Shown piece after piece: positions 656 through 38,512 of a stretch of DNA of 64,000 nt. Source of the DNA: Escherichia phage SelmaRatti; the sequence record MZ501103; one strand, given 5' to 3'. The notes under the pieces were generated by a model. The model saw nothing but the letters and a program-made list of their open reading frames with translations, did not search any database and was not told where the DNA came from. Numbering within the stretch: the first letter of the stretch is position 1; each line of letters starts with the position of its first letter. The translations under genes and the position numbers were made by a program.

Positions 656-1149
656 AATTTTATTCTAAGTCTAGGAATTTCAGGCTCCTCTTGATGGACT
701 TGGTAAATAACCGGGCTATTATTTACTAGAATATAGCTTATATACGCTGGAACATAGGATAATACAAATGGATAAGGTACTTTAGCCACATAGCATTGGT
801 ATTTTCCGTTATAAATTCTAGCCGAATGCAAAACTTTAGAGGTGGCAACATCATAGAACGTAGTTTTCTTCCAGTTAATAAGATTTCCATCAGAATCTAT
901 AAATTGGCTACGCTTTGACCCAACTAATTGAGACAACATTGATATTCTACCTCTAATAGGATAGAGCTTGTACGGTAATTCCTTCCGTTTCTCAAATAGA
1001 ATAAGTCTACGTTGAGAAAAAGTGCCAGGCAACTTCCTGTTATCTAACACATATTTATTATATCTTGTTGTAATTACGGAATAATCACCTTCTTGCTCAA
1101 TTGATACAAACGCCCGTAAAGCATATACGGGCAATTTGAAATCAAGCAC
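652..1149 (-). CDS. hypothetical protein (165 aa)
   Basis: ORF in same orientation as flanking replication genes, start overlaps polymerase stop. Confidence 0.45.
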   Translation of the reverse strand: MLDFKLPVYALRAFVSIEQEGDYSVITTRYNKYVLDNRKLPGTFSQRRLILFEKRKELPYKLYPIRGRISMLSQLVGSKRSQFIDSDGNLINWKKTTFYDVATSKVLHSARIYNGKYQCYVAKVPYPFVLSYVPAYISYILVNNSPVIYQVHQEEPEIPRLRIKL

Positions 1150-4100
1150 CTAAAATCCTTTTCACATTATCCAGATCTTTACATACAGCAATAAACTTAT
1201 CATCCTTGTACTTGCTGTGGTCTGGATGCTCTTTATCCATTGCAGCTAACTTCTTATACTCGAAATCTGCATCGAGTAATACACCCTTAACATAACGAGT
1301 ATACTCATCATCATCAATACAAGCGATTGATGGATGCTGCTTCTTCATCTTACCACAAGAGTAGTCACGAGAACCTCCAGCTTCAGAATCAGAATCAATA
1401 CCAATCGGACAACCAGGAATACTGATACCACGGTCTTTCTGAATATTACGAATCAGGATTTCATTGTATTGGTCGATCAAATCCTCACGAACAATAGCAA
1501 CTACGGAGTCGTGAACTAGCATAACAATCTTCATCTCTTGTTCTAGGCCAAGAGAAATGATCTCATTATCTGCATCTACAGCACCTAAAAGGAGACTATC
1601 AGAAGAAGCAGACTGAATGATTGCGTTAAATCCAGAACGGATTTCTTCACCTTGAACACCACGGTCTTCGGAGTGGATATTATGCAGACGACGTTTACGA
1701 CCAAAGTGACTGTAGATAAATCCATGATTCTTGATCTGATCATGGCACTTATCAATCCAACGCTTAAGCTGCGAGAACTGACCGAAGTAAGTTTCAATGT
1801 ACTCTTTAGCATCTGCAACAGTACACTCTACAAACGGTTCGCCTGTCTTAGCAGCCTGCTCCAGAAGAGCTTCGTTAACAGAATGAGCTACTTTAGATGG
1901 GCCAGAACCATACAAAATACCAAAGGTAATTGCTTTAGCTGCTTGACGCAGAGCTGGGAATAGCTTTTTAACATCACGAGGTTCGCATTGGAGCTTAAAT
2001 ACCATGTGTGCGATGTTAGAGTGGAAGTCAGGGTATTTATCAGGTTCATTTCTCATGTTGATAAATACTTGTTGCATATTTCTATCACCAGATAGAACAG
2101 CAGCATAATAAACTTCCGCAGTTGTTAAGTCCCATGCAATTACACGGTATCCAGGTGGTGCAACTACACAACCCTTGATAATAGATTCATCACGAGGTAA
2201 CTGTTGAAGGTTCAGTTTACCAGAAGAACTCAGACGACCAGAGGTAGTCATGTGTTCATGGAAGCCAGTACGAATGCAACCATCAGCATCAATACTCAGT
2301 AGAATCTTCTCAACATAAGTAGAGATCAGCTTAGTCAGCTTACGAATCTCTAGCAGAGTTTTAGCAATTGGATGCTGCGTAGCCAGTTCATTTAGAGCTT
2401 CTGCATCTGTAGAGTCTGCTCCAGTATCCGTCAATTTACCTGTTGGAGTTAAGCCAACATAATCAAACAGAAGAACACGTAGCTGCTTAACAGAGTTAGG
2501 ATTAAACGCTTCATTCTGGTCTTTCTCTAGCTGAACGACTTCTGGATAAGTATACAGTTTCTCACGAGCCTTATTCAGGTTATGGGTTAACTGGTACTGT
2601 GCTTCTTTCAAGCGATCAATAGAAATTGGTACACCACGATCCTCAACACGCTGGAGAAATACACAACCAGGCATTAGAACATCATAATACAGACTACAAA
2701 GTTTTTCATTCTTCTCAATTTTTGGTAAGAAGAAATTGTGCAAACGTATGGTGGCATCTGTATCTTTACAGTTGTGAACTACACCAACTTTAGTTACAAA
2801 GTTATGATTATCTTTTACATCTATGCACCAACTGGTAGAGTAACCTCTTCTAGAAGCTGGAACTATCCAATCCTCAATCCCATACACTTCTGCGTAGTAG
2901 TACTTAGATGTTGAAAAATCCCAAGTTCCTATTCCTACTAAATGCTTGAATCTTTCTGGCACCTTGTAAGCCATAGAGCTATGCATATATGGAGCAATCA
3001 AAGGGAATAGTTCTTCATTATCTAATACAAAGAACTGATTATTTTCTCCATCGTTATGGTAGTGTGCTGTAACGCCTAGATTTTTACACCATTCTATGAA
3101 ATTTTGCTGCTCTTCTCTACAATCAGCAACTGTTCTAGACCAAATGCGTGCATTTCCTTGTGGCAGGGTACCAGCATCTTGATACCAAATAGCTAGTGCT
3201 TTTTCATCTAACCCTTCTAGATTTTTCTTAGTAATTTTTAACTTATACTTTGTAGTATTATCTCGCACCTCTAAGGTAGAGAATAAGTCAGAATACTCAG
3301 AGGTATATGGGAAACTATACGTATATGCTTTTTTATCTCCCTTTGTAGAAACACTAAGAGTTGGTGTTTCTACTTGAGAAGCTGCCTTAAAATCTAGATA
3401 CTCTTTATGCGCTTCTGACTGTGTCAGTTGTAGACCAGCGCCCCATTTATTTCTAGATACCAGAGCACCATCCCCAAATAGGGATGCCATTAATACTTGC
3501 TTACTATCAGATGGTAAAGCAATTTCTTCAGTTTGGATTTTATCCTGTCCTGGAATAATATCTTGTACTTCTATGTATCCATTCTGAGTTAATACCCTAT
3601 GGTCTGGTGTAAATACTGGACCATTAATAGTACCACTAGAGTTTCTTTTCTGAGATTTAACTACTAACTTCTTCCATTTTTTGGATTTATGTTCATTTTT
3701 ATACCATCCAGTAATAGGTTTGTTCTCAAATTGCCCAGTTGATTCGTTGAATGATACTACAGCTTCTGTAGATTTGGTACGAACAAGTTCCCCAATAGTC
3801 TTCCAATTCCCTGAAGCCATCTTAACTTGGGAATCGTGAGTAAGACATGCATAAGGCCACATAATATCAAACGGAATTAAATCATAGGTGAAATCTTCTT
3901 TCTTGATTTTATGTGCTTTGCAGTAATCATCTTTGAACTTATCTAGTTCGAAGTCATAGTCACCCATATCTGTATACTTCATTGCTAGAGATTTCAAGCC
4001 ATGAGTACCACGACGTTCATCTAGAACATAGTGCTGCAACATGGTATCATGGAGCCTGCGTTCTTTATGTGCTTTATCAAAGGTAAGTCCCAGATGGTAC

Positions 4101-4786
4101 TTATAAAAGTGCATATCAAACTTCAAGTTGTGAAAAACAATAGTGTGGTTTTCACTATCCAGAATTTTCTGGAGGTAATATACTGCAACCTCTGTGAGAC
4201 AATCAGAATCTATATATACACCCTGATACTCTTGGTGAGAAATAGAAACACCAAGCAAATAACCATCTCGACAGTATAGTGCTGAGGTTTCGGAGTCGAA
4301 TGCGATAGGTCCGATAACCATATTATACACCATCTTGATATATTCTTCCGCCTCGTCAGGGTCAGTAATAGGACGGTAATCACCAGCTTTTGCAATCTTC
4401 TCACGACCATTGATAATATCGTGGATATTCTCTACTGTTGCATCAAAAACTGGTTTCATTTCAGGCTTAAAGTGTAACTGGGCTGGGCTGATACTCGCAA
4501 TCCAGTTAGCATATCCATTATACTCTACACGTTTACCAGTATAGTCACCAATGCCTTTCTTACCTGCGAAGTACAGGAAAGGTTCAGCACCTACTAGTAT
4601 AACAAAATCATAATCATTCGGATCAAATGGGTTTTCCGGAGTCCCGATAGTAATATGCTTTTTGAGCAAACGACCGGATAACTTCTCGTTACACATATGG
4701 AATACATCAACTTCCTCGCCGTATAGCTGGAAATGTTTATCATAACGAGTGTTATTTAGAGCTTTATCAACTACTGCGATTTTCAA
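1142..4786 (-). CDS. family A DNA polymerase (T5-type) containing an in-frame intein
   Basis: Exo motif FDSETSAL, pol motif B RQAAKAITFGILYG, motif C VHDSV; 1214 aa, of which 359 aa are an intein, leaving 855 aa. Confidence 0.9.
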   Translation of the reverse strand: MKIAVVDKALNNTRYDKHFQLYGEEVDVFHMCNEKLSGRLLKKHITIGTPENPFDPNDYDFVILVGAEPFLYFAGKKGIGDYTGKRVEYNGYANWIASISPAQLHFKPEMKPVFDATVENIHDIINGREKIAKAGDYRPITDPDEAEEYIKMVYNMVIGPIAFDSETSALYCRDGYLLGVSISHQEYQGVYIDSDCLTEVAVYYLQKILDSENHTIVFHNLKFDMHFYKYHLGLTFDKAHKERRLHDTMLQHYVLDERRGTHGLKSLAMKYTDMGDYDFELDKFKDDYCKAHKIKKEDFTYDLIPFDIMWPYACLTHDSQVKMASGNWKTIGELVRTKSTEAVVSFNESTGQFENKPITGWYKNEHKSKKWKKLVVKSQKRNSSGTINGPVFTPDHRVLTQNGYIEVQDIIPGQDKIQTEEIALPSDSKQVLMASLFGDGALVSRNKWGAGLQLTQSEAHKEYLDFKAASQVETPTLSVSTKGDKKAYTYSFPYTSEYSDLFSTLEVRDNTTKYKLKITKKNLEGLDEKALAIWYQDAGTLPQGNARIWSRTVADCREEQQNFIEWCKNLGVTAHYHNDGENNQFFVLDNEELFPLIAPYMHSSMAYKVPERFKHLVGIGTWDFSTSKYYYAEVYGIEDWIVPASRRGYSTSWCIDVKDNHNFVTKVGVVHNCKDTDATIRLHNFFLPKIEKNEKLCSLYYDVLMPGCVFLQRVEDRGVPISIDRLKEAQYQLTHNLNKAREKLYTYPEVVQLEKDQNEAFNPNSVKQLRVLLFDYVGLTPTGKLTDTGADSTDAEALNELATQHPIAKTLLEIRKLTKLISTYVEKILLSIDADGCIRTGFHEHMTTSGRLSSSGKLNLQQLPRDESIIKGCVVAPPGYRVIAWDLTTAEVYYAAVLSGDRNMQQVFINMRNEPDKYPDFHSNIAHMVFKLQCEPRDVKKLFPALRQAAKAITFGILYGSGPSKVAHSVNEALLEQAAKTGEPFVECTVADAKEYIETYFGQFSQLKRWIDKCHDQIKNHGFIYSHFGRKRRLHNIHSEDRGVQGEEIRSGFNAIIQSASSDSLLLGAVDADNEIISLGLEQEMKIVMLVHDSVVAIVREDLIDQYNEILIRNIQKDRGISIPGCPIGIDSDSEAGGSRDYSCGKMKKQHPSIACIDDDEYTRYVKGVLLDADFEYKKLAAMDKEHPDHSKYKDDKFIAVCKDLDNVKRILGA
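2771..3847 (-). mobile_element. intein inside DNA polymerase (aa 314-672), with endonuclease-like insert
   Basis: Begins with Cys (…IMWPYA|CLTHDSQ), ends VVHN followed by Cys (HN|CKDTD); internal LFGDGAL motif; codons checked at both junctions. Confidence 0.75.
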
Positions 4787-22872: not shown

Positions 22873-22906
22873 AGGCCTGGGTATGAAAATGCTCGGGCCT
22901 TTTCTA
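22873..22906 (+). terminator. hairpin terminator upstream of nrdA
   Basis: GC-rich imperfect stem then ttttct; shares cgggccttttctat with the 44216 terminator. Confidence 0.4.
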
Positions 22907-22987
22907 TCAGAAAATTTTATTTGCCAAATGACTGAGAATAAAGTAAACTATTTCCTAAATCCTGATAACTATAAAAAGGAAAGCCAA

Positions 22988-25900
22988 ATGAGCCATCGCA
23001 TTGAAAAAGTAATTAAACGTGACGGTACTGTAGAAGACTTTGCTCCTGAAAAACTCAATGGTTGGGCAGAGTATGGTTGCAAAACAGTTGATGTAAGTTG
23101 GTCAGCCATTACTATGGCTGCTCAAAAAACCCTACCTAAAGGGGTTGTAGATTCCGACACTCTTATGGACGCATTAATTAAAGCTGCTGAAAGTCTTATC
23201 AAAGATAACCCAGCATACGATGTGCCAGCAAAGGAATTACGTCTTGCGCAAATGCGTAAGCGCCTTTATGACTCTTTCGAACCACCTTCTCTACGCTTCT
23301 TCCATGACCACATGGTTAGCGTAGGTACATGGGAAGACATGAGTGCATGGATTACCGATGAGCAATTTGAAGCTCTGAATCAGGTTATCGACCATGATCG
23401 TGACCGTCTTTTTACTAGTGGTGGGCTGAAGCAGTTCTTTGATAAGTATTCACGTCGTAACATAGCCACTGGTGAAATTTACGAAACCCCTCAATTCGCC
23501 TATATGGGTATGGCAATGGCGATGTTATCTCAACCTAACTGGACAATTCTAGATGCAATCGATCTCTACAATGCAATGTCGCTCCACAAGATCAACGTTC
23601 CTACGCCGCCATTGGTTGGCTTGCGCTCTAGTGACCGTGGATTTGCTAGTTGCTGCCTCGTGGATTCCACTGACACATTGGATTCAATCGACACAGCAGA
23701 GCACATCGTCTTCAAAATGGTCGCAGCCAGAGCGGGAATCGGGTATCATCTTGAAAGCAGATCAATTGCTGATCCGGTGCGAAATGGGGCATTCCCGCAT
23801 TCCGGAAAACTGCCATATTATCGACACATTGACCGCTCAGTAAAGGCCAATACTCAGCAAACTCGTGGTGGTTCTGCTACAGTGTCTTATCCATACTTCG
23901 ACCCTGAAATCATTCAATTGATGCAGGTTAAGCAACAACGTGCTACAGATGAGAATAAAATCGATAAGATGGATTATTCTCTGAGCTTTAACAATCTTTT
24001 GTTAAAACGTTATCTTAAAAACGAAGATATTACGCTAATGTCATACTTCTATGCTCCAGAAGTTCATGAAGCGTTTTATAGTGATGACGAGGCTAAATTT
24101 GAAGAAATCTACGTGGCAGCGGAGAAACGTGTGGCATCTCTTACAAAAATCGACCACGAAGGAAAAACAGTTCCAGCAGCTCCTAAAGTCTCTGCAAAAG
24201 AAATCCTAGATACTTGGCTACGTATCCGAATGGAAACAGGACGTATGTACGCTCACCACATCGGGGAATCTAATCGTCACGGTAACTTTCTTGATCCAAT
24301 CCGTATGACTAACCTTTGTGTAGCTCCAGAAACAAAAATTTTAACCAAAAATGGTAACATAGAGATTATTGATTTAGTTGGTAAAGAAGTAGAGATTTGG
24401 AACGGGCAAGAATGGTCAACAGTTATCCCTGCTAAAACTGGGGAAGCTCAGGAGTTGATGAAAATCACATTCTCTGATGGATCTACTATTGAATCTACTC
24501 TTTATCATAAGTTCTACCACCAGCCCAAATATGTAAGAGAGGATCGTAGTACCTCCTTCAAACAGGGTCTAGAAGAGGTACGAGCAGTAGACTTGCAAGT
24601 AGGTATGAAAATGCCTAAATTTAGTAATCCTATTGTAGATCATGGAAATATGGTACTAAAATCTCCTTATACTAACGGTTTCTTCACTGGAGATGGAACT
24701 TATGGAAGACATGGAGAACCTAAGCTGTACTTCTATGAAAAAGGAGGCAAACTACCATTAGTGGATAAAATTGACGCAAAGATTCAGGGAAGTGGATTAC
24801 TGGACAGCACAGGTAGACTGAGTTATATTGTTAAGTCTGATTTAATGCCGAAGTATTTTGTACCTGGCCCAGAATACACTATTGATAGCCGTATCAAATG
24901 GTTAGAGGGATATTTAGATGCAGATGGCTGCATACAGAAAAATGGCACAACCCCTAGTATTGTGGTTGCTTCGGCAGAGCCTGATTTTCTAAGTAAAGTG
25001 AAGGATTTGTTACTAGAATTGGGGATTACTAGCAAGATTATTTTAGGACGCCAAGAAGGTGACTACGAGTTACCAGATGGTACTGGTAGTAGTAGTAAAC
25101 TATACCACTGCAAGGAGACTAGTAGGCTTATTGTGGGGAGTAGTGGCTTCTGGAAACTTAAAGATTTAGGACTCTCTTTGGATAAAGAGAAACTCTTAAA
25201 CCTAACACGCCCCAATAGAGACGCAACCCGTTTTGTAACTGTAACTAACGTTGAGTTTACTGGTCGTATTAGTGATACCTATTGCTTTACAGAACCTAAA
25301 TTAAACTTGGGTGTATTTAATGGCATTTTAGCTGGTAACTGTGTAGAGATTACTCAGCCTACACGCCCGTTCCACCACATCACAGAGCTGTATAAGACAA
25401 AAGAGCAGCTTGATCAAATGAAGCCGGAGGATATTGGTGAAGTATCTCTGTGTAACTTAGGTGGTGTTGTACTTGGACGCATGGAATCTCTGGCTGAGTG
25501 GGAAAAAACTTGCTACATCCTTCTGAAATTCGTTGATACAATTATTGAAATTCAGGATTATCCGTTCCCAACTATGGAATATACGGCTAAGAAACGTCGT
25601 AATGTTGGTATTGGCCTGATGAACGCAGCAGGTGCAATGGCAGCAGAAGGTCTGGCTTATGAAGGTATTGAAGCCCGTAACTGGATTCACCGTGAGGCTG
25701 AAAAACTGTCTTACTTCCTGCATAAAGCCTCTGTACGCCTAGCTAAAGAACAGGGCGCATGTGAGTGGTTTGATCGTACTAAACCATCTAAAGGAATTCT
25801 GGTAATCGACACTTACAAGAAAACTGTTGATGAACTGGTATCCGTAGGTCTAGAAATGGATTGGGAATCTCTGCGTGCAGATATTCTGAAATACGGTATG

Positions 25901-26344
25901 CGTAACTCTGTTCTGACTGCGCAGATGCCTGGAGAAAGCTCTTCTGTACTATTGGGTGTTACCAACTCAATTGAGCCACCTCGTAAGATTGTATCTATCA
26001 AGGGTAGTGCAGTGAATAAAGTAATTGCAATTGCTCCAGGTGCAACCGATTGGGATACTCTCATGAGCTATAAACTGGCCTATGATATTGATCGCACTGA
26101 GTGGATCAAGTGGAACGCCGTTTACCAAAAATTCTTGAGTCAGTCATCAAGTTTCCAGATGTATTATGATTACTCTAAATTCGAGAATGAAATCATCCCT
26201 GGCCCAGTAGTAGTTCGTGACTTTATGACTGCGGTTAAGTATGGTATAAAAACCTGGTATTATGCTAACTTTAACACTGCGAATGGTGGAGGAGCTGGTG
26301 AAGAGGCGGCAACAGGTTGTGCATCAGGCGGTTGTCAGTTATAA
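22988..26344 (+). CDS. nrdA: ribonucleotide reductase large subunit (class Ia) with in-frame intein
   Basis: MSHRIEKVIKRDG matches NrdA N-terminus; C-terminal CxxC tail; RBS aaaaggaaag; upstream part of the 22883 ORF is a terminator/leader. Confidence 0.9.
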   Translation: MSHRIEKVIKRDGTVEDFAPEKLNGWAEYGCKTVDVSWSAITMAAQKTLPKGVVDSDTLMDALIKAAESLIKDNPAYDVPAKELRLAQMRKRLYDSFEPPSLRFFHDHMVSVGTWEDMSAWITDEQFEALNQVIDHDRDRLFTSGGLKQFFDKYSRRNIATGEIYETPQFAYMGMAMAMLSQPNWTILDAIDLYNAMSLHKINVPTPPLVGLRSSDRGFASCCLVDSTDTLDSIDTAEHIVFKMVAARAGIGYHLESRSIADPVRNGAFPHSGKLPYYRHIDRSVKANTQQTRGGSATVSYPYFDPEIIQLMQVKQQRATDENKIDKMDYSLSFNNLLLKRYLKNEDITLMSYFYAPEVHEAFYSDDEAKFEEIYVAAEKRVASLTKIDHEGKTVPAAPKVSAKEILDTWLRIRMETGRMYAHHIGESNRHGNFLDPIRMTNLCVAPETKILTKNGNIEIIDLVGKEVEIWNGQEWSTVIPAKTGEAQELMKITFSDGSTIESTLYHKFYHQPKYVREDRSTSFKQGLEEVRAVDLQVGMKMPKFSNPIVDHGNMVLKSPYTNGFFTGDGTYGRHGEPKLYFYEKGGKLPLVDKIDAKIQGSGLLDSTGRLSYIVKSDLMPKYFVPGPEYTIDSRIKWLEGYLDADGCIQKNGTTPSIVVASAEPDFLSKVKDLLLELGITSKIILGRQEGDYELPDGTGSSSKLYHCKETSRLIVGSSGFWKLKDLGLSLDKEKLLNLTRPNRDATRFVTVTNVEFTGRISDTYCFTEPKLNLGVFNGILAGNCVEITQPTRPFHHITELYKTKEQLDQMKPEDIGEVSLCNLGGVVLGRMESLAEWEKTCYILLKFVDTIIEIQDYPFPTMEYTAKKRRNVGIGLMNAAGAMAAEGLAYEGIEARNWIHREAEKLSYFLHKASVRLAKEQGACEWFDRTKPSKGILVIDTYKKTVDELVSVGLEMDWESLRADILKYGMRNSVLTAQMPGESSSVLLGVTNSIEPPRKIVSIKGSAVNKVIAIAPGATDWDTLMSYKLAYDIDRTEWIKWNAVYQKFLSQSSSFQMYYDYSKFENEIIPGPVVVRDFMTAVKYGIKTWYYANFNTANGGGAGEEAATGCASGGCQL
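24317..25339 (+). mobile_element. LAGLIDADG intein in NrdA (341 aa) at the catalytic Cys
   Basis: Exteins join to MTNL|CVEITQP (conserved NLCxEI); intein starts CVAPETKIL, ends ...GILAGN|C; LEGYLDADGCIQ motif. Confidence 0.8.
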
Positions 26345-28126: not shown

Positions 28127-28959
28127 TGAAACAGTATATTGATTTAATTAATAAAGTTTTATCTGAGGGAACTCACGTGTCTGACCGGACAGGTGTAGGT
28201 ACTATCTCTTCCCTAAATAATATTGTCTCTTTTGACCTTACTAAAGGGTTTCCAGCAGTAACAACAAAAGCACTAGCGTGGAAATCCGTGGTAGGGGAGT
28301 TGTTGTGGTTCCTCTCAGGATCCACTAACTTGTATGATCTAGAAGAGTATACTCATGGGACTAGAGGAGAGAAGCGTACTATCTGGCATCCTAATTATGA
28401 AAAACAAGGGGTCGAAAAAGGCTACACTGAAGGTTATCTGGGATATATTTATGGGAAAACCTGGAGAGACTTCTTCGGCACAGACCAGATTATGAAACTA
28501 ATCGAGGATATCAAATCCGATACTTTTCATAATAGAAAAATGGTAGTCTCAGCATGGAATCCTGCAAAACTTGACGACGTTGTGCTTTCCCCCTGCCACG
28601 TAATGTTCTCCGTAAACCAAAGAGATGGACACCTACACTTAACATGGTACCAGGTTAGTTGTGATGTATTTCTGGGATTACCATTTAATATAGCTAGCTA
28701 TGCCTTACTCTGTCATATTTTAGCTGCACTCACAGGAAAGAAACCTGGGTCAGTAACGGGACATCTTGTGGACACTCATATTTACTTAAATCACCTAGAC
28801 CAAGTAAAGGAGCAAGTAACTAGAGAACCCCTGGAGCTACCTAGACTAGTGCTACCAAACTTCTCTTCCTTAGAAGATCTTCTGGCCCTAACACCCAAAG
28901 ACTTTATCCTGGAAGAATATAAACATCACCCTAAATTAACTGGTAAAATGGCAGCATGA
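28126..28959 (+). CDS. thyA: thymidylate synthase
   Basis: Active-site VLSPCHVMF (PCH motif); 277 aa. Confidence 0.85.
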   Translation: MKQYIDLINKVLSEGTHVSDRTGVGTISSLNNIVSFDLTKGFPAVTTKALAWKSVVGELLWFLSGSTNLYDLEEYTHGTRGEKRTIWHPNYEKQGVEKGYTEGYLGYIYGKTWRDFFGTDQIMKLIEDIKSDTFHNRKMVVSAWNPAKLDDVVLSPCHVMFSVNQRDGHLHLTWYQVSCDVFLGLPFNIASYALLCHILAALTGKKPGSVTGHLVDTHIYLNHLDQVKEQVTREPLELPRLVLPNFSSLEDLLALTPKDFILEEYKHHPKLTGKMAA

Positions 28960-29729
28960 TTTACATCTATAGTATAACTCAGTTATCTACTGGAAGACAG
29001 TACGTTGGATCGACTAAGGATATTGAGGCTAGAAAGCGTAAACATTTTTACTCACTAAGTAAGGGGAACCACCATAACGCTTTTCTACAGAGAGCTTATG
29101 ATAAAACCGGAAAGCAAGACTTTGTATTTGACATCTTAGATACTACTGAAGAAGTAGATCAGCAGTTCCTACTAGAAGAAGAGTGGGCTAAGGAGCTGGG
29201 AGCAGAGTTCAACATAGGTAGTTACGGTGGTGGGGATAATCTCACAAATAATCCTCGAAGAGAGGAGATTATTAAGAGAATTGGTGAGAGTGTTAGAAAG
29301 CATATAGCGTCCTTATCTGAAGAAGAAAGAAAAGCCCGGTGGAGTAGACCAGGTGAGCTAAACTATAACTGGAAGGGAGGAGTATCTACTCGCTCAAAAA
29401 CATGTATTGATTGTGGTTCCCTACTAGCCCTTAATAACACTAATGGGGAGTACTGTAATAGTTGCAGGGATCGAACAGGTGAGAATAACCCCTTTTATGG
29501 GAAGAAGCATACTGAAGAGGCTCTGAGCAAGATGTCTCAGGCTTCTAAGCAGTACCAAGAAAGTATTAGAGAGGGAAAGACACCCCTTCCTACCCACTTT
29601 AAGGCAGTACGTGTGGATGGTGTGGAATACGTTAGTATGAGTGCAGCAGCTATAGCATTGGGGTGTTCCACAGCGACTATAGGTAATAGAGTTCGTTCAC
29701 CTAAGTTCCCGACGTATGAGTTTGTATAA
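28956..29729 (+). CDS. GIY-YIG homing endonuclease
   Basis: N-terminal IYIYSITQLSTGRQYVGSTKDIEARKRKH; C-terminal zinc-finger-like CIDCGS...CNSCRD. Confidence 0.75.
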   Translation: MIYIYSITQLSTGRQYVGSTKDIEARKRKHFYSLSKGNHHNAFLQRAYDKTGKQDFVFDILDTTEEVDQQFLLEEEWAKELGAEFNIGSYGGGDNLTNNPRREEIIKRIGESVRKHIASLSEEERKARWSRPGELNYNWKGGVSTRSKTCIDCGSLLALNNTNGEYCNSCRDRTGENNPFYGKKHTEEALSKMSQASKQYQESIREGKTPLPTHFKAVRVDGVEYVSMSAAAIALGCSTATIGNRVRSPKFPTYEFV

Positions 29730-31191: not shown

Positions 31192-31220
31192 TTGCTAAAC
31201 GCTTCAAATTCTCGTATAGT
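31192..31220 (+). promoter_or_regulatory. sigma70-type early promoter
   Basis: TTGCTA-17-TATAGT then cataaattga. Confidence 0.5.
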
Positions 31221-31258: not shown

Positions 31259-31774
31259 ATGGCTAAGCAGAAAAACGCAAAAACTCAAGCAGCTACTACA
31301 GTTAAAACTTTCCCGCAGACTGAGGCTAACCGCAAAGCTCGTCTGGAACGCCACCTGCGCAAGCACCCTACTGATGCTCAAGCTGCACAGGCACTGAATC
31401 GTCCGGCTCCTATTCGTCAAAAGCCGAAGGCTAAGAATGCTACTCGTTCTGTAGCCCGCCTTGTGACCTATGTACAGGGTTATGGTCACAAATCTGTTCC
31501 AGTAACACTGAGTTTCAATGCTGGAGCTGAATTGTTCTCTCGTAATGGCATGGCCATGAAAGATTATGAGAAAGCAGTTAACCAGAAGCGTAAACCAACG
31601 GCAGATGTACTGCGTGATGCTCGTGGACAGTTTGGTTCTGTTAAGCCAAATATCTTCGGTGTAGAGTATAGCAAAGATAACGTTCGTGCTCTGTGCTACG
31701 GTGTAGGGATTAAATTCACGGGCGATTCTGCTCGTAAATCTGCTAAACCAGCTCGTAAACGTAAAGCGAAGTAA
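31259..31774 (+). CDS. hypothetical basic protein (171 aa)
   Basis: Strong promoter and RBS, Lys/Arg-rich, followed by hairpin terminator. Confidence 0.5.
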   Translation: MAKQKNAKTQAATTVKTFPQTEANRKARLERHLRKHPTDAQAAQALNRPAPIRQKPKAKNATRSVARLVTYVQGYGHKSVPVTLSFNAGAELFSRNGMAMKDYEKAVNQKRKPTADVLRDARGQFGSVKPNIFGVEYSKDNVRALCYGVGIKFTGDSARKSAKPARKRKAK

Positions 31775-31779
31775 TAGAT

Positions 31780-31806
31780 AAGAGGGGCTTTCGCCCCTCT
31801 TAGTTT
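31780..31806 (+). terminator. rho-independent terminator
   Basis: agaggggc-tttc-gcccctct then tagttt. Confidence 0.55.
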
Positions 31807-31815
31807 GGAGAAACT

Positions 31816-32037
31816 ATGCGTAATTTTGTAGTAAAGAATGATTTTAACCGTGCTAGCACTCATAAGTCTGCTAGAGATTACACACGACTTTCTAGTCATG
31901 AGATAATGGATTTAGCAGTGGATGAGTTAGACTTAGATGACCTCTCTATGGAAGAGAACTGGGATGTCAGTGAAGATATGCTTCCTGGTTTTAAAGACCC
32001 CAAGAAGTGGGAGTCTATTAAAGAGACAACTCTTTAA
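31816..32037 (+). CDS. hypothetical protein (73 aa)
   Basis: ORF. Confidence 0.4.
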   Translation: MRNFVVKNDFNRASTHKSARDYTRLSSHEIMDLAVDELDLDDLSMEENWDVSEDMLPGFKDPKKWESIKETTL

Positions 32038-32065
32038 TAGTTTTCTACACAATAAAGGATAAGTT

Positions 32066-32767
32066 ATGAAAGTAAAACCATTTGGTATGCTAGATATTGA
32101 ATCTCTAGGAACTCCAGGAGATTGTGGTACTACTCATATTGTAATGCCTTCTTTCGCTTTTGTGGCTATGCACGGAATTGATAAAGATCCTGGTCTAGTG
32201 TTTGTTACTTTAGATGTACAAGATCAGCTTAATTCTGGAGCTAAAGTTACGGCATCTACTCTAGCATTCTGGATGGATCAAGCTAAACATAGCCCGTCTG
32301 CTGTCCACATTATGGAAGCTATGAAGGAACGTAATCCAAAACTGATTGCCTTCCAAAATGGTAAACATTATTGCACTAATAAATTAGGCTCAAACTATGC
32401 TGCCTTCTCTATGGCTAAAAACATTATGGAATCGGCTCTAGGAGAGAATGCTCTATACTACGGCAATGGCCCGGAGTTTGATATGACTATCTACTCTGCA
32501 AATACGTTCCACGCGGGAACTCACGAAGAGGTAGTTCCGTGGAAATTCTGGAACTTAGGTAATGTTCGATCTATACGCAATCTTTGGATGCAGGCTGGCT
32601 ATAGTTATAAAGATCTAGAAGCCGAAGGTATTAGCTGGGCAATAGCTAAAATGGAGAAGATGGACACCATTCGTTATGGGATCTATCCGGTTAAGCATGA
32701 TCCAGCATTCGATGCCTTAGTTGAGAGCTATTGTATTGCAGCTATGATCGAAAAAATGAAAATTTGA
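32066..32767 (+). CDS. DEDDh-type 3'-5' exonuclease-like protein
   Basis: N-terminal MLDIESLG (Exo I D-x-E) and C-terminal HDPAFDAL (Exo III H-x4-D). Confidence 0.45.
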   Translation: MKVKPFGMLDIESLGTPGDCGTTHIVMPSFAFVAMHGIDKDPGLVFVTLDVQDQLNSGAKVTASTLAFWMDQAKHSPSAVHIMEAMKERNPKLIAFQNGKHYCTNKLGSNYAAFSMAKNIMESALGENALYYGNGPEFDMTIYSANTFHAGTHEEVVPWKFWNLGNVRSIRNLWMQAGYSYKDLEAEGISWAIAKMEKMDTIRYGIYPVKHDPAFDALVESYCIAAMIEKMKI

Positions 32768-33090: not shown

Positions 33091-33729
33091 ATGACTACTA
33101 GTATTTCTAAAACTCGCGCTCTGGCAACTATCAAATCTCTGGAAGCTAAAATCCGTAAAGCTACTGAACAACAGCTTCTGATCGCTGTTGGTGAAGGTAA
33201 GGATAAAAATAAGGTTGTAGTTGGCGCTGCAATCGAAGTAGACGATCTGTCTGCTCGTATTAAGACTGATTTCCAGTCTCTGCTGGATATGATGTCCCAG
33301 CGTGATCGTATCAAAGCTGCTCTGATTAAAAGCAATGCTGAAACAATCGTTGAGATTGGCTCTCGTAAGATGACTGTTGCGGAAGCAATTGAAGCTAAGC
33401 GTTCTATGGAACTTAAAGCCCAACTGCTGGATAACATGCGTAAGCAGTTCCATGCCGCTACGGTTAAGTTTAATACGCAGAAAGCACAGTTTGATGCTAA
33501 ATATGAGCGTTTGCAGGATAGCATGGCTACCCGCGATAAGAAAACTTCCGAAGATGAAGTTAAAATGCAGCTCAACCTGCTGGAACTCAAGAATACTCCA
33601 TTCTTGATTGACCCGCTGGAACTGGAAAAGCTGATTAAGCAGCACGACGAGGAATACCAGGACTTTGCAACAAATGTTGACTTTGTTCTGTCCGAGTCTA
33701 ACGCCTCTACCTTTATTGAAGTAGAGTAA
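33091..33729 (+). CDS. hypothetical coiled-coil protein (212 aa)
   Basis: RBS aaggaag; overlapping minus-strand ORFs have implausible composition. Confidence 0.5.
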   Translation: MTTSISKTRALATIKSLEAKIRKATEQQLLIAVGEGKDKNKVVVGAAIEVDDLSARIKTDFQSLLDMMSQRDRIKAALIKSNAETIVEIGSRKMTVAEAIEAKRSMELKAQLLDNMRKQFHAATVKFNTQKAQFDAKYERLQDSMATRDKKTSEDEVKMQLNLLELKNTPFLIDPLELEKLIKQHDEEYQDFATNVDFVLSESNASTFIEVE

Positions 33730-34171: not shown

Positions 34172-34993
34172 ATGGGTAAATTACAAAAACAAATACTACC
34201 ATATATAGATTATATTCGAGAAATTATAAAATATAATCCTTATACCGGTAAATTATTTTATAAGCCTAATAAATACAAGAATAAAACTTGGCACACCCTA
34301 TATGCTGGGAGAGAAATATGTAGTAAGAACTCTAATGGGTACATCAGAGTTAGCTTGCTCTTAGGTAATAAACCCACAATTATTTATGGGCACCGAATAG
34401 CGTGGTTGCTCCATTATGGTGAAGAGCCACCTGATATGATCGACCATATAAATACCATACCGTGGGATAACAGAATTCTTAATCTAAGAGAGACAAATTT
34501 TAAGTTAAATAGGATTAATACTGATAAAACCGTAGGTGTAGAACTCCTCTCCGAGGGTTTTGTGTATAGCATTACATTAGGTGGAAAGTTTTTCGTATCT
34601 CCTGGCTTCACCACTTTCGAACAAGCTAAAGGGGAAAGAGAAAAACTAGTAAATGGTTTATGTAATGCAGAAATTGGGAAGCAGACCAATATTCTAATAG
34701 ACGATGTTAGAGATCTACCTGAAATGTCCATTATTTGTCGTACAGTTATAGGTGCGCTGGAACTATCAGATATGTTTAGTTTCACAGGATCCTATTTATT
34801 TATGGACTCAGATTTAGGGGATCCAGAGGTACAAGGAAAAGATTTATTAGATCATATACTATTTTTAGGTCAAAGACCACTAAAAGTGGTTCTAGTAACA
34901 TCTAATCCTGTTGACGCAGAGTACATGAGAGGAACCCTTACGTCTTATGGATACCGAGAAAATCCCAATAGATTAGAATATGATCTATTTTAA
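34172..34993 (+). CDS. HNH homing endonuclease (AP2/HNH_3-like)
   Basis: GYIRVSL...HRIAWLLHYGEEPPDMIDHINTIPWDNRILNLRETN. Confidence 0.7.
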   Translation: MGKLQKQILPYIDYIREIIKYNPYTGKLFYKPNKYKNKTWHTLYAGREICSKNSNGYIRVSLLLGNKPTIIYGHRIAWLLHYGEEPPDMIDHINTIPWDNRILNLRETNFKLNRINTDKTVGVELLSEGFVYSITLGGKFFVSPGFTTFEQAKGEREKLVNGLCNAEIGKQTNILIDDVRDLPEMSIICRTVIGALELSDMFSFTGSYLFMDSDLGDPEVQGKDLLDHILFLGQRPLKVVLVTSNPVDAEYMRGTLTSYGYRENPNRLEYDLF

Positions 34994-35466: not shown

Positions 35467-36156
35467 ATGAAAAAATTAACACAGGAAGAAGTAGAGAGTT
35501 ACCTAGTTAGTAGAGGCTTATTCACTAATGATAAGTATACTAATACTAGGACTAAAATGCAGTTCTGTTGCACCTATGGACATGTTTTTAATGCTACCCT
35601 AAATAATATTAGGAACGGAAGAGGTTGTCCCTACTGCTATGGAAATGTTAGGTACACTCAAGAACAAGTATCTGAATATTTGCGTAGTTTAGGATATTAC
35701 ACCATTACCAAATATATAAATAATAACTCTAAGCTACAACTTACTTGTAGTAAGGGGCATGTATGGATTACCACTTTTAGTGCCATAAAAAATATGGGTA
35801 ATAGATGCCCTGAGTGCTCCAATATATGGAGCGATGGTGGGATACTTTATATAATAACTAGTTCATTAGGTACAAAAATAGGAATTACTAATTCTCCTGC
35901 TCGTAGGTTAAGGGATTTGATTACTGCATCCGGGGATCCCACAGCTAAGTATTATGGTCATTATACATATGGTAGCTCTTCTAAATCAGAAACCCTTGCT
36001 TTAGAGAAGAAGGCACATATGTATTTTAAAAGTCATAATTGTGGTTATAGTGGATTTGCTGGATCTACTGAATACTTTAATATTTCCACCGAAGAGGCAG
36101 AAGAATTCCTCTTGAAAGAGGGGGCCACAATAGTACAGAAAGAGGGTGGTTTATGA
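35467..36156 (+). CDS. zinc-ribbon repeat + T5orf172/GIY-YIG-like domain protein (homing-endonuclease-like)
   Basis: FCCTYGHVF...CPYC, LTCSKGHVW...CPEC, then LYIITSSLGTKIGITNSPARRL. Confidence 0.6.
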   Translation: MKKLTQEEVESYLVSRGLFTNDKYTNTRTKMQFCCTYGHVFNATLNNIRNGRGCPYCYGNVRYTQEQVSEYLRSLGYYTITKYINNNSKLQLTCSKGHVWITTFSAIKNMGNRCPECSNIWSDGGILYIITSSLGTKIGITNSPARRLRDLITASGDPTAKYYGHYTYGSSSKSETLALEKKAHMYFKSHNCGYSGFAGSTEYFNISTEEAEEFLLKEGATIVQKEGGL

Positions 36157-37564: not shown

Positions 37565-38512
37565 ATGTTTAATACTAAAAATATGAAAGAACTAACTTCT
37601 GAGCAGAAAGTAATTCGTACTATTAAACGTTGGGGGATTGGTGCTGTAGTTGGTTTAGCAGGTTTAATCCTAGCTTTTAATTCATATACTATTGTTTCTG
37701 ATGGTACGGTTAAAACTCAAACATTCCTGGGTAAAGTAGACCCTAATCCAGTATTACCTGGTTTCCATATTGTAAACCCGTTTGCATCTTTCGATACTTT
37801 CAGTACAAAAGATATTGCTGTAAAATTAGATAAACTTCAGGTTCCTAGTCAGGATAAGTTTAAATCCACTGTTGACCTGACTGTTATGTTACAATTTGAT
37901 GGTTCTAAGGCACCGATCAACCGTATTAATGCAGGTACTCAGGATCAGGCTCTAGATAAGTACGTAACTGAAAAATTACTGTCCACTATTCGTGAGTTCG
38001 GTAAGTCTGTACCTAAAGCACAAGATTTATTTGATGCTAAAATTCAGGCTCAATTGCAAACTGCAATTCAACAGGAAGTTGAAGAGTATGCACGCCCATA
38101 TGGTTACACAGTTAAGCAGGTATTCCTTCAGGATATTACTTTGCCACCGGTAATCATGGAACAGGTACAGAATACCAAAGTTCGTGAAGAACAGGTTAAT
38201 GCTGCTAAAGCTGAATTAGCTCGTGTTGAACAGGAAGCACAGCAAAAAGTTAAACAAGCAGAAGCAGATCGTGAAGCTCGCAACAACCAAGCTATCGCTA
38301 ATGAACGTGACGCAGATGCTAAACTGTACGCAGCTAAGAAAGAAGCTGAAGCTAACGCCGCACTGCAACGTACCATTACTCCTGAGATGATTCGTTGGAA
38401 ACAACTGGAAGTTGAGATGATTCGTGCTCAGAAATATCAAGGTGGTGTGCCGCAGACTGTGGTTGGCACTGGTTACGATGGCCAGATGATTATGGATATG
38501 CGTAATAAGTAA
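37565..38512 (+). CDS. SPFH/band-7 membrane protein
   Basis: N-terminal TM helix, band-7-like core, C-terminal coiled coil. Confidence 0.55.
   Translation: MFNTKNMKELTSEQKVIRTIKRWGIGAVVGLAGLILAFNSYTIVSDGTVKTQTFLGKVDPNPVLPGFHIVNPFASFDTFSTKDIAVKLDKLQVPSQDKFKSTVDLTVMLQFDGSKAPINRINAGTQDQALDKYVTEKLLSTIREFGKSVPKAQDLFDAKIQAQLQTAIQQEVEEYARPYGYTVKQVFLQDITLPPVIMEQVQNTKVREEQVNAAKAELARVEQEAQQKVKQAEADREARNNQAIANERDADAKLYAAKKEAEANAALQRTITPEMIRWKQLEVEMIRAQKYQGGVPQTVVGTGYDGQMIMDMRNK

What the first reader, a model, noticed from the sequence alone, without database searches (positions are those of the whole stretch)
32066..32767. DEDDh-like 3'-5' exonuclease of unknown substrate
Exo I (DIESLG) and Exo III (H-x4-D) signatures sit in a stand-alone 233-aa protein not fused to a polymerase. 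It could be a proofreading or recombination nuclease, or an RNA/oligonucleotide-degrading enzyme.
Basis: inference. Interest (0 to 1): 0.4.

Follow-up and report, generated by a model that had tools for sequence, protein, structure and literature searches.

The report
T5-type DexA-like 3'-5' exonuclease gene
This is a real but ordinary gene: the T5-like phage version (ortholog of T5 gene T5.087) of a stand-alone DEDDh 3'-5' exonuclease related to phage T4 DexA, already annotated in hundreds of phage genomes and dispensable for T5 growth in the laboratory.

Summary

The substrate remains unproven, because the Pfam family holds both a DNA exonuclease (DexA) and an RNA exonuclease (Rv2179c). I favour a DexA-like single-stranded-DNA or oligonucleotide 3'-5' exonuclease with an accessory role. 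The gene is an early gene behind nrdAB-frd-thy-rnh, and it scored 'Not Fit' in a T5 knock-down screen. The phage polymerase has its own proofreading domain.

The one new detail is that the upstream 73-aa ORF is fused in frame to the exonuclease in other Demerecviridae, such as Klebsiella phage Sugarland, which suggests a partner or tail. Interest is low.

The parts
32066..32767 (+). CDS of the 233-aa DEDDh 3'-5' exonuclease (ortholog of T5.087)
32093..32101 (+). Exo I motif, codons D10-I-E12 (metal-binding carboxylates)
   Evidence: Invariant in A1. Aligns with DexA D7/E9.
32462..32482 (+). Exo II motif G133-N-G-P-E-F-D139
   Evidence: G133, N134, G135, F138 and D139 are invariant. D139 aligns with DexA D119.
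32537..32569 (+). Family-specific motif P158-W-K-F-W162-N...R168, shared with DexA (PCKFWNQRDIR)
   Evidence: P158, W162 and R168 are invariant in A1. The column of R168 (DexA R158) is invariant in all 34 sequences, and W162 aligns with DexA W152.
32696..32713 (+). Exo III motif H211-D-P-A-F-D216 (general-base histidine and fourth carboxylate)
   Evidence: H211 and D216 are invariant. They align with DexA H186/D191.
32054..32059 (+). Shine-Dalgarno AAAGGA of the exonuclease gene. The same bases encode the 'NKG' of the linker in fused homologues.
   Evidence: Sequence. Frame translation ...QLFNSFLHNKG*VM, compared with the linker SRNYFNNKGIIM of fused proteins.
31816..32037 (+). Upstream 73-aa ORF (T5.088 ortholog; phrog_4586; weak DUF7230 match). 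It is fused in frame to the exonuclease in other Demerecviridae, so it is a likely partner or detached N-terminal tail.
   Evidence: PHROG E 1.3e-36. Pfam DUF7230 is weak, E 0.031 here and 3.6e-4 for T5.088. Fused homologues are P0015, P0017, P0022, P0024 and P0026. Loci L005 and L006. Sugarland gene of 334 aa.
32007..32048 (+). Stable RNA hairpin across the stop codons of the 73-aa ORF, followed by UUUUCU. Possible attenuator in front of the exonuclease gene.
   Evidence: Terminator-like scan hit. Folding energy -19.3 kcal/mol, z -4.5. Stem arms identical in T5 and SHSML-45 (one loop base differs); My1 has a hairpin of different sequence plus a T-run at the same position.
31259..31774 (+). 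First gene of the probable transcription unit: DUF7022 protein (T5.089 ortholog)
   Evidence: Pfam DUF7022 E 1e-76. Synteny DUF7022 - small ORF - exonuclease is kept in distant relatives.
31192..31220 (+). Sigma-70 promoter-like site TTGCTA-17-TATAGT, at the position of T5 early promoter P-H207
   Evidence: Promoter scan. Sequence. The T5 record annotates 'promoter P-H 207' upstream of T5.089.
31779..31802 (.). G+C-rich palindromic hairpin (TAAGAGGGGC-TTTC-GCCCCTCTTA) between the DUF7022 gene and the 73-aa ORF
   Evidence: Terminator-like scan. Sequence.

Best explanation
The ORF encodes the T5-like phage ortholog of T5.087. It is a stand-alone, metal-dependent DEDDh (DnaQ-like) 3'-5' exonuclease of the DexA/Rv2179c-like family (Pfam PF16473, PHROG 255).

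Shown here: the ORF, the fold, the five invariant catalytic residues and their one-to-one match to T4 DexA, the conserved gene order, and non-essentiality in T5.

Inferred from the chemistry common to DEDDh enzymes: D10, E12, D139 and D216 hold two divalent cations. H211 activates water. Nucleoside 5'-monophosphates are removed one at a time from a free 3'-OH end.

Inferred as the most likely substrate and role: like its nearest characterised relative T4 DexA, it prefers single-stranded DNA or oligonucleotide 3' ends. It would act as an accessory early enzyme of DNA metabolism. Possible tasks are trimming 3' tails during recombination-dependent replication or repair of the double-strand breaks made by the many homing endonucleases of these phages, and converting oligonucleotides to mononucleotides.

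Expression would come from the early P-H207-type promoter through two hairpins that may attenuate it. The upstream 73-aa protein, which is fused to the enzyme in other genera, is probably a partner or a detachable disordered tail that tethers or regulates the enzyme.

Rough probabilities: DEDDh exonuclease of this family about 0.9; DNA rather than RNA as the main substrate about 0.5-0.55.
For: - **Sequence link to DexA.** hhalign of A1 against DexA gives E 2.8e-4. There is also a transitive link: many of the representatives found with the A1 profile are significant phmmer hits of DexA. In a joint alignment, D10/E12/D139/H211/D216 match DexA D7/E9/D119/H186/D191, and the motifs STxxFW and PWKFWN..R are shared.
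- **DexA biochemistry.** DexA is a 3'-5' exonuclease that prefers ssDNA over dsDNA and has roles in DNA scavenging and intron homing (PMC12153337).
- **Context.** The gene lies in the early nucleotide and DNA metabolism block nrdA-nrdB-frd-thy-rnh. The same order is found in distant Demerecviridae.
- **Homing elements in the window.** There is a LAGLIDADG insert in pol and another in nrdA, a GIY-YIG ORF, an HNH ORF and a T5orf172 ORF.
- **Dispensability.** T5.087 was scored 'Not Fit' in the CRISPRi-ART knock-down screen of T5 (PMC11879866 supplement).
Against: No enzymatic data exist for any member of the T5.087 clade, and no paper naming T5.087 was found.

Sequence identity to DexA is about 11%. 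The clade has three insertions absent from DexA. DexA's oligomer-contact residues S72, S87, D90 and D181 are not conserved.

From established T5 biology (my own knowledge, not tested here), host DNA is destroyed during the pre-early stage. That is before this gene enters the cell, and T5 does not reuse host nucleotides. DexA's scavenging role therefore probably does not transfer to T5.
Confidence: 0.7

Rival explanations
1. It is mainly an exoribonuclease or oligoribonuclease, like Rv2179c, RNase T or Orn. It would trim or degrade RNA 3' ends: primer fragments released by the neighbouring RNase H, 3' trailers of phage tRNAs, or host and phage mRNA fragments.
Against: The closest structure and the closest sequence-linked characterised protein is the DNA exonuclease DexA. 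Nothing in the sequence identifies 2'-OH recognition. E. coli already supplies RNase T, Orn and other RNA exonucleases (my own knowledge).
Confidence: 0.25
2. It is a counter-defence nuclease that removes a nucleic-acid component of host immunity. Candidate targets are linear oligonucleotide signals, retron msDNA, or guide or primer strands with free 3' ends. The DUF7230 tail would target it.
For: In distant relatives the gene sits next to accessory or anti-defence genes: Sequestin/PF21825, a 3'cADPR sponge, NADAR and cREC_REC. The gene is dispensable in a laboratory host, as counter-defence genes usually are. The CBASS-associated exonuclease Cap18 is among the top structural matches. The subfamily is almost restricted to phages.
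Against: There is no hit in PADLOC. DEDDh enzymes need a free 3' end, which cyclic signals lack (my own knowledge). The gene keeps a fixed position inside the conserved nucleotide-metabolism block across genera, unlike typical mobile anti-defence cargo. The Cap18 similarity is generic DEDDh similarity. Sequestin is absent from this window.
Confidence: 0.07
3. It is a separate proofreading subunit of the phage replicase, like Pol III epsilon.
Against: The phage family A polymerase (1145-4786, -) has its own DNA_pol_A_exo1 3'-5' exonuclease domain, E 8.4e-33. The T5 record describes the polymerase as having 3'-5' exonuclease activity. The gene is far from pol and is non-essential.
Confidence: 0.03
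4. It is a metallopeptidase, as most GenBank records call it.
For: The label 'metallopeptidase' is attached to this gene in most T5-like phage records. The T5 record says the protein matched InterPro IPR000834.
Against: No peptidase family appears in the Pfam scan even at E up to 10 or in NCBIfam. The fold and the invariant residues are those of a DEDDh nuclease. RefSeq has already relabelled it 'exonuclease'.
Confidence: 0.01

Closest known systems
Phage T4 DexA (exonuclease A; PDB 8kel; PF16473; PHROG 255)
   Different: Identity is only about 11%. The T5.087 clade has three insertions: after Exo I, a beta-hairpin at about residues 92-104, and a helical insert at about 175-205. DexA's tetramer and dimer contact residues are not kept. 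T5 DNA carries no 5hmC (my own knowledge), so DexA's discrimination between modified and unmodified DNA has no obvious counterpart. In some genera the clade carries an N-terminal DUF7230 tail.
Mycobacterium tuberculosis Rv2179c (PDB 4hec), founder of Pfam PF16473
   Different: Rv2179c is a 155-residue bacterial exoribonuclease acting on RNA 3' overhangs. The phage protein is about 80 residues longer, has extra elements, and sits in a DNA-metabolism gene block.
RNase T / oligoribonuclease (Orn, REXO2) / ERI1 / Pol III epsilon (classical DEDDh enzymes)
   Different: No significant sequence similarity. The profile search of PDB sequences gave no hit at E <= 1, and the only RNase_T Pfam hit seen was a weak one for DexA. 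The substrate-binding elements of those enzymes are not recognisable.

Membership tests
DEDDh (DnaQ-like) 3'-5' exonuclease superfamily | Exo I motif D-x-E | tested here: met
   D10-I-E12, invariant in 26 homologues and in 34 sequences including DexA.
DEDDh (DnaQ-like) 3'-5' exonuclease superfamily | Exo II aspartate | tested here: met
   D139 in GNGPEFD is invariant and aligns with DexA D119.
DEDDh (DnaQ-like) 3'-5' exonuclease superfamily | Exo III motif H-x4-D (the 'h' subtype) | tested here: met
   H211-DPAF-D216 is invariant and aligns with DexA H186/D191.
DEDDh (DnaQ-like) 3'-5' exonuclease superfamily | RNase H-like alpha/beta fold of DnaQ-type exonucleases | tested here: met
DEDDh (DnaQ-like) 3'-5' exonuclease superfamily | Metal-dependent 3'-5' exonuclease activity | not testable with these tools
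   Needs a biochemical assay.
Pfam PF16473 (Rv2179c-like 3'-5' exoribonuclease domain) | Score above the curated gathering threshold | tested here: met
   34.3 bits against a cut-off of 27, E 2.4e-8, residues 8-180. The precomputed PF16473 label is on most homologues.
T4 DexA-type exonuclease (PHROG 255) | Full-length homology to DexA, including family-specific motifs outside the catalytic residues | tested here: met
T4 DexA-type exonuclease (PHROG 255) | DexA oligomerisation contacts (S72-D181; S87/D90) that underlie the dimer-tetramer switch | tested here: not met
   The equivalent positions are A73, I206, K92 and A112, and the columns are variable. These lie in poorly aligned regions, so the oligomeric state itself remains unknown.
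T4 DexA-type exonuclease (PHROG 255) | 5hmC-recognition residues W152 and D169 (PMC12153337) | tested here: inconclusive
   W152 corresponds to the conserved W162. D169 falls opposite E187 inside an insertion where the alignment is unreliable.
T4 DexA-type exonuclease (PHROG 255) | Preference for ssDNA 3' ends | not testable with these tools
   Needs a biochemical assay.
Metallopeptidase (legacy label; InterPro IPR000834) | Match to a peptidase profile or zinc-binding motif | tested here: not met
   No peptidase family in Pfam at E up to 10 or in NCBIfam. The fold is that of a nuclease.
Replicase proofreading subunit (Pol III epsilon-like) | The polymerase lacks its own exonuclease and needs a separate proofreader | tested here: not met
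   The window's family A polymerase has a DNA_pol_A_exo1 domain, E 8.4e-33.

The most novel reading that the evidence does not exclude
The T5.087 clade may not be a functional copy of DexA. It may be a two-part module: a DEDDh nuclease plus a conserved, disordered DUF7230 tail, encoded separately in T5-like phages and fused in Sugarlandvirus and others. The tail would recruit the nuclease to a specific host or phage partner. The target would be a particular nucleic acid, such as an RNA or a defence-related DNA/RNA species, rather than bulk DNA ends.
Probability: 0.15. Interest if true: 0.5.

Novelty: new member of a known kind. Interest (0 to 1): 0.2.

Why it matters
The value is mainly for annotation. 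It corrects the widespread 'metallopeptidase' label on this gene in T5-like phage genomes. It also places the gene firmly in the DexA/Rv2179c-like DEDDh exonuclease family. The fusion between the small upstream ORF (T5.088 type) and the exonuclease gives a cheap, testable hypothesis of a protein partner for an otherwise uncharacterised accessory nuclease of a classical model phage. Nothing here challenges current understanding.

Tried and rejected
- **PDB sequence searches.** Both the single protein and the A1 profile gave no meaningful hits. The link to solved structures came only from fold comparison.
- **NCBIfam and PADLOC.** Neither gave a relevant hit.
- **T7 gp1.1 idea.** I asked whether the N-terminal MRNF... 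motif of the 73-aa ORF is related to T7 gp1.1, which would have linked it to the optA1/Dgt phenotype shared by T7 gene 1.2 and T4 dexA. T7 gp1.1 belongs to PF08200, not DUF7230, and BLASTP finds no alignment. Rejected.
- **Recoding idea.** I asked whether the split genes are joined by programmed recoding. A +1 slip at CUU UAA would enter the exonuclease frame, but that frame has a further TAA just before the ATG. Two recoding events would be needed. Rejected in favour of simple gene fission or fusion.
- **AF2 of the natural fusion protein P0026.** The aim was to see how the tail docks. The tail is mostly below pLDDT 50, so there is no docking information.
- **Scan of 185,579 bacterial and archaeal genomes.** Only one weak partial locus was found, in a MAG. 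There is no evidence that this subfamily has bacterial or defence-island members, although the scan is pattern-based and can miss distant ones.
- **Other copies of the MRNFVxKN motif in the window.** None found.
- **Literature.** No paper names T5.087 or its accession. Nothing further was found on PF16473. The original Rv2179c paper is not held in the library.

Full report
**Observation.** The window holds an ATG-started ORF at 32066..32767 on the + strand that encodes 233 residues. An AAAGGA ribosome-binding site lies seven bases upstream of the ATG.

**Origin of the window.** The 6 kb around the ORF is 91-94% identical at the DNA level to many T5-like phages of Salmonella, Escherichia and Shigella (Demerecviridae, Tequintavirus and relatives). 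A tblastn search finds the protein in 588 phage records. Of these, 437 are 80-99% identical and 151 are below 60%. The labels vary: 'metallopeptidase', 'exonuclease', "3'-5' exoribonuclease" or 'hypothetical protein'.
- In phage T5 itself the ortholog is T5.087 (YP_006915.1). It is labelled 'exonuclease', with a note that it once matched InterPro IPR000834, which explains the peptidase label.
- The surrounding genes on the same strand are nrdA (with a LAGLIDADG insert), nrdB, frd, thy, a GIY-YIG endonuclease, rnh and a 92-aa ORF.
- Then follow a DUF7022 protein (T5.089), a 73-aa ORF (T5.088), the exonuclease, a 60-aa ORF, a protein carrying a 'tail fiber' label, an HNH/cREC_REC protein and the endolysin.

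**Family and fold.**
- Pfam gives a single hit, PF16473 'Rv2179c-like 3'-5' exoribonuclease domain', at 34.3 bits against a gathering score of 27.
- PHROG 255 'exonuclease' matches over the full length at E 4.7e-50.
- T4 DexA, taken from the T4 record, hits the same Pfam family (E 2.4e-22) and the same PHROG (E 3.6e-91).
- An alignment of 26 homologues reaching 36% identity has D10, E12, D139, H211 and D216 invariant.
- AlphaFold2 with this alignment gives a confident model, pLDDT 89.4 and pTM 0.90.

**Link to DexA at the sequence level.**
- Direct profile-to-sequence comparison is weak: hhalign E 2.8e-4, probability 41%. The A1 profile finds nothing among PDB sequences.
- A profile search of 1.84 billion representatives found 871 proteins at E <= 1e-3. 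Only 12 were at E <= 1e-30, so the T5.087 type is a small, distinct clade inside a large family.
- Many of the intermediate representatives (170-200 aa) are in turn significant phmmer hits of DexA, with E down to 2e-16.
- A joint MAFFT alignment shows collinear motifs along the whole protein.
- DexA's published catalytic residues are D7, D119, H186 and D191, plus an Exo I glutamate printed as E12 in the paper's Fig. 5 legend (PMC12153337). In the T4 sequence residue 12 is a glycine and the Exo I glutamate is E9, the residue used here. These residues fall in the same columns as D10, E12, D139, H211 and D216.
- An invariant arginine (R168, equivalent to DexA R158) and the tryptophan W162 (equivalent to DexA W152) are shared.
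- Compared with DexA the clade has three insertions: after Exo I, a beta-hairpin near residues 92-104, and a helical segment near residues 175-205. DexA's oligomer-contact residues are not conserved.

**Function.** The chemistry can be stated with confidence from the DEDDh family: two-metal hydrolysis of the 3'-terminal phosphodiester bond, with the histidine as general base. The substrate cannot be stated with confidence.
- Within PF16473, DexA is a 3'-5' exonuclease that prefers ssDNA and has roles in scavenging host DNA and in intron homing (PMC12153337).
- Rv2179c removes single-stranded 3' overhangs of dsRNA (PMC10534295).
- I favour a DexA-like DNA or oligonucleotide substrate for three reasons. 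DexA is the nearest relative by structure and by transitive sequence search. The gene sits in a conserved DNA and nucleotide-metabolism block across distant Demerecviridae. These phages are crowded with homing endonucleases and intein-like inserts, whose breaks need exonucleolytic processing, which is the documented second role of DexA.
- A scavenging role is doubtful for T5. As far as I know, host DNA is destroyed in the pre-early stage and is not reused. This is background knowledge, not a result obtained here.
- Proofreading is unlikely because the phage polymerase has its own 3'-5' exonuclease domain.
- The gene is dispensable in the laboratory. In the CRISPRi-ART knock-down screen of T5, T5.087 and T5.088 were 'Not Fit', whereas the upstream T5.089 was 'Fit' (PMC11879866 supplementary files 8 and 16).

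**The upstream 73-aa ORF.** This was the one unexpected result.
- Five divergent homologues (P0015, P0017, P0022, P0024 and P0026; 324-334 aa) carry an N-terminal extension of about 85 residues. That extension is homologous to the window's separate upstream ORF at 31816..32037, which begins MRNFVVKNDFNRASTHKS.
- The fusion is real in assembled genomes. It is seen in two metagenomic T5-like contigs with the same gene order. It is also seen in Klebsiella phage Sugarland, where the annotated gene is 334 codons long. In Pectobacterium phage My1 the two genes are separate.
- In the window, the exonuclease reading frame upstream of the ATG still reads ...QLFNSFLHNKG*VM, which matches the linker SRNYFNNKGIIM of the fused proteins. 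The Tequintavirus arrangement therefore looks like a fused gene split by a frame change and a stop codon, or the reverse history.
- In the fused gene of L006 the linker keeps AAAGGA-N6-ATG, so a short form could also be made there.
- The small protein is conserved as a separate ORF across Demerecviridae. It matches phrog_4586 and only weakly matches DUF7230.
- AF2 on the fused protein predicts a confident nuclease domain and a mostly disordered tail with one helix. The tail looks like a set of linear motifs, a basic N-terminus followed by an acidic EENWDVSED stretch, rather than a domain. How it acts is unknown. A tethering or regulatory role is inference only.

**Expression signals.**
- A promoter-like site TTGCTA-17-TATAGT at 31192-31220 lies where the T5 record annotates the early promoter P-H207.
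- A G+C-rich hairpin separates the DUF7022 gene from the 73-aa ORF.
- A second hairpin at 32007-32048 spans the stop codons of the 73-aa ORF. It folds at -19.3 kcal/mol with z -4.5. Its stem arms are identical in T5 and SHSML-45 (a single base differs in the loop). In My1 a hairpin of different sequence followed by a T-run occupies the same position.
- This may attenuate expression of the nuclease, which would fit the toxicity of over-expressed DexA. It has not been tested.

**Other readings considered.**
- A counter-defence role is suggested only by the company the gene keeps in distant relatives: Sequestin, a 3'cADPR sponge, NADAR and cREC_REC, together with the gene's dispensability. PADLOC has no match, the gene's position is fixed within a core block, and DEDDh enzymes need free 3' ends.
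- The subfamily is almost confined to phages. A scan of one genome per species for 185,579 species found a single partial match in a MAG.
- The peptidase label has no support.

**Verdict.** The gene is an ordinary, already annotated accessory nuclease of T5-like phages, a divergent clade of the DexA/Rv2179c-like DEDDh family. Its biochemical substrate is untested. The fission/fusion relationship with the T5.088-type small protein is a modest new lead. Interest is low (0.2).

Noticed in passing
window 31816-32037 (+); L005 8001-8975; L006 8001-8978; L010 2228-3232: The 73-aa ORF upstream of the exonuclease is fused in frame to the exonuclease in other Demerecviridae, for example the 334-aa gene of Klebsiella phage Sugarland. 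In the window the old linker is still readable in the exonuclease frame (…NSFLHNKG*VM).
   Followed up: yes
window 32007-32048 (+): Stable RNA hairpin (-19.3 kcal/mol, z -4.5) spanning the stop codons of the 73-aa ORF and followed by UUUUCU. Its stem is identical in T5 and SHSML-45 (one loop base differs). Phage My1 has a hairpin of different sequence plus a T-run at the same place. It may be an attenuator in front of the nuclease gene.
   Followed up: partly
window 34172-34993 (+): A 273-aa protein combines an HNH_3 endonuclease domain with a C-terminal cREC_REC ('cyclic-phosphate processing receiver') domain (phrog_1479). In T5 the homologue T5.084 is only the 105-aa receiver part, so a homing endonuclease appears to be fused to or inserted into this gene here.
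   Followed up: no
window 31259-31774 (+): DUF7022 protein (T5.089 ortholog). It is very basic and sits directly behind the P-H207-type early promoter. It scored 'Fit' in the T5 CRISPRi-ART screen, although its function is unknown.
   Followed up: partly
window 1145-4786 (-) and 22883-26344 (+): The family A DNA polymerase is 1214 aa, against the 2568-bp (about 855-codon) pol gene annotated in T5, and carries a LAGLIDADG_2 insertion. NrdA (1153 aa) carries a LAGLIDADG_3 insertion. Both look like inteins or in-frame homing-endonuclease inserts.
   Followed up: no
window 28956-29729 (+) and 35467-36156 (+): Free-standing mobile endonuclease genes: a GIY-YIG + NUMOD3 ORF between thy and rnh, and a T5orf172/MUG113 ORF with zinc-finger and CapR-like segments after the endolysin. 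Neither has a counterpart at these positions in T5.
   Followed up: no
window 33091-33729 (+): A 212-aa protein labelled 'tail fiber protein' (phrog_1491; T5.085) lies in the middle of the early region. It has no supporting Pfam domain above threshold and shows only weak coiled-coil-like matches. The label looks doubtful.
   Followed up: no
L005 7498-7695 and L006 7760-7954 (related metagenomic T5-like contigs): In distant relatives a Sequestin (PF21825) gene lies between the DUF7022 gene and the fused exonuclease gene. Sequestin is an experimentally shown 3'cADPR sponge that blocks Thoeris. L005 also has NADAR and cREC_REC genes nearby. No Sequestin gene is present in the window.
   Followed up: partly
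window 37565-38512 (+): The protein labelled 'lipoprotein' in T5 (T5.080) is an SPFH/Band 7 domain protein (Pfam E 1.8e-17).
   Followed up: no
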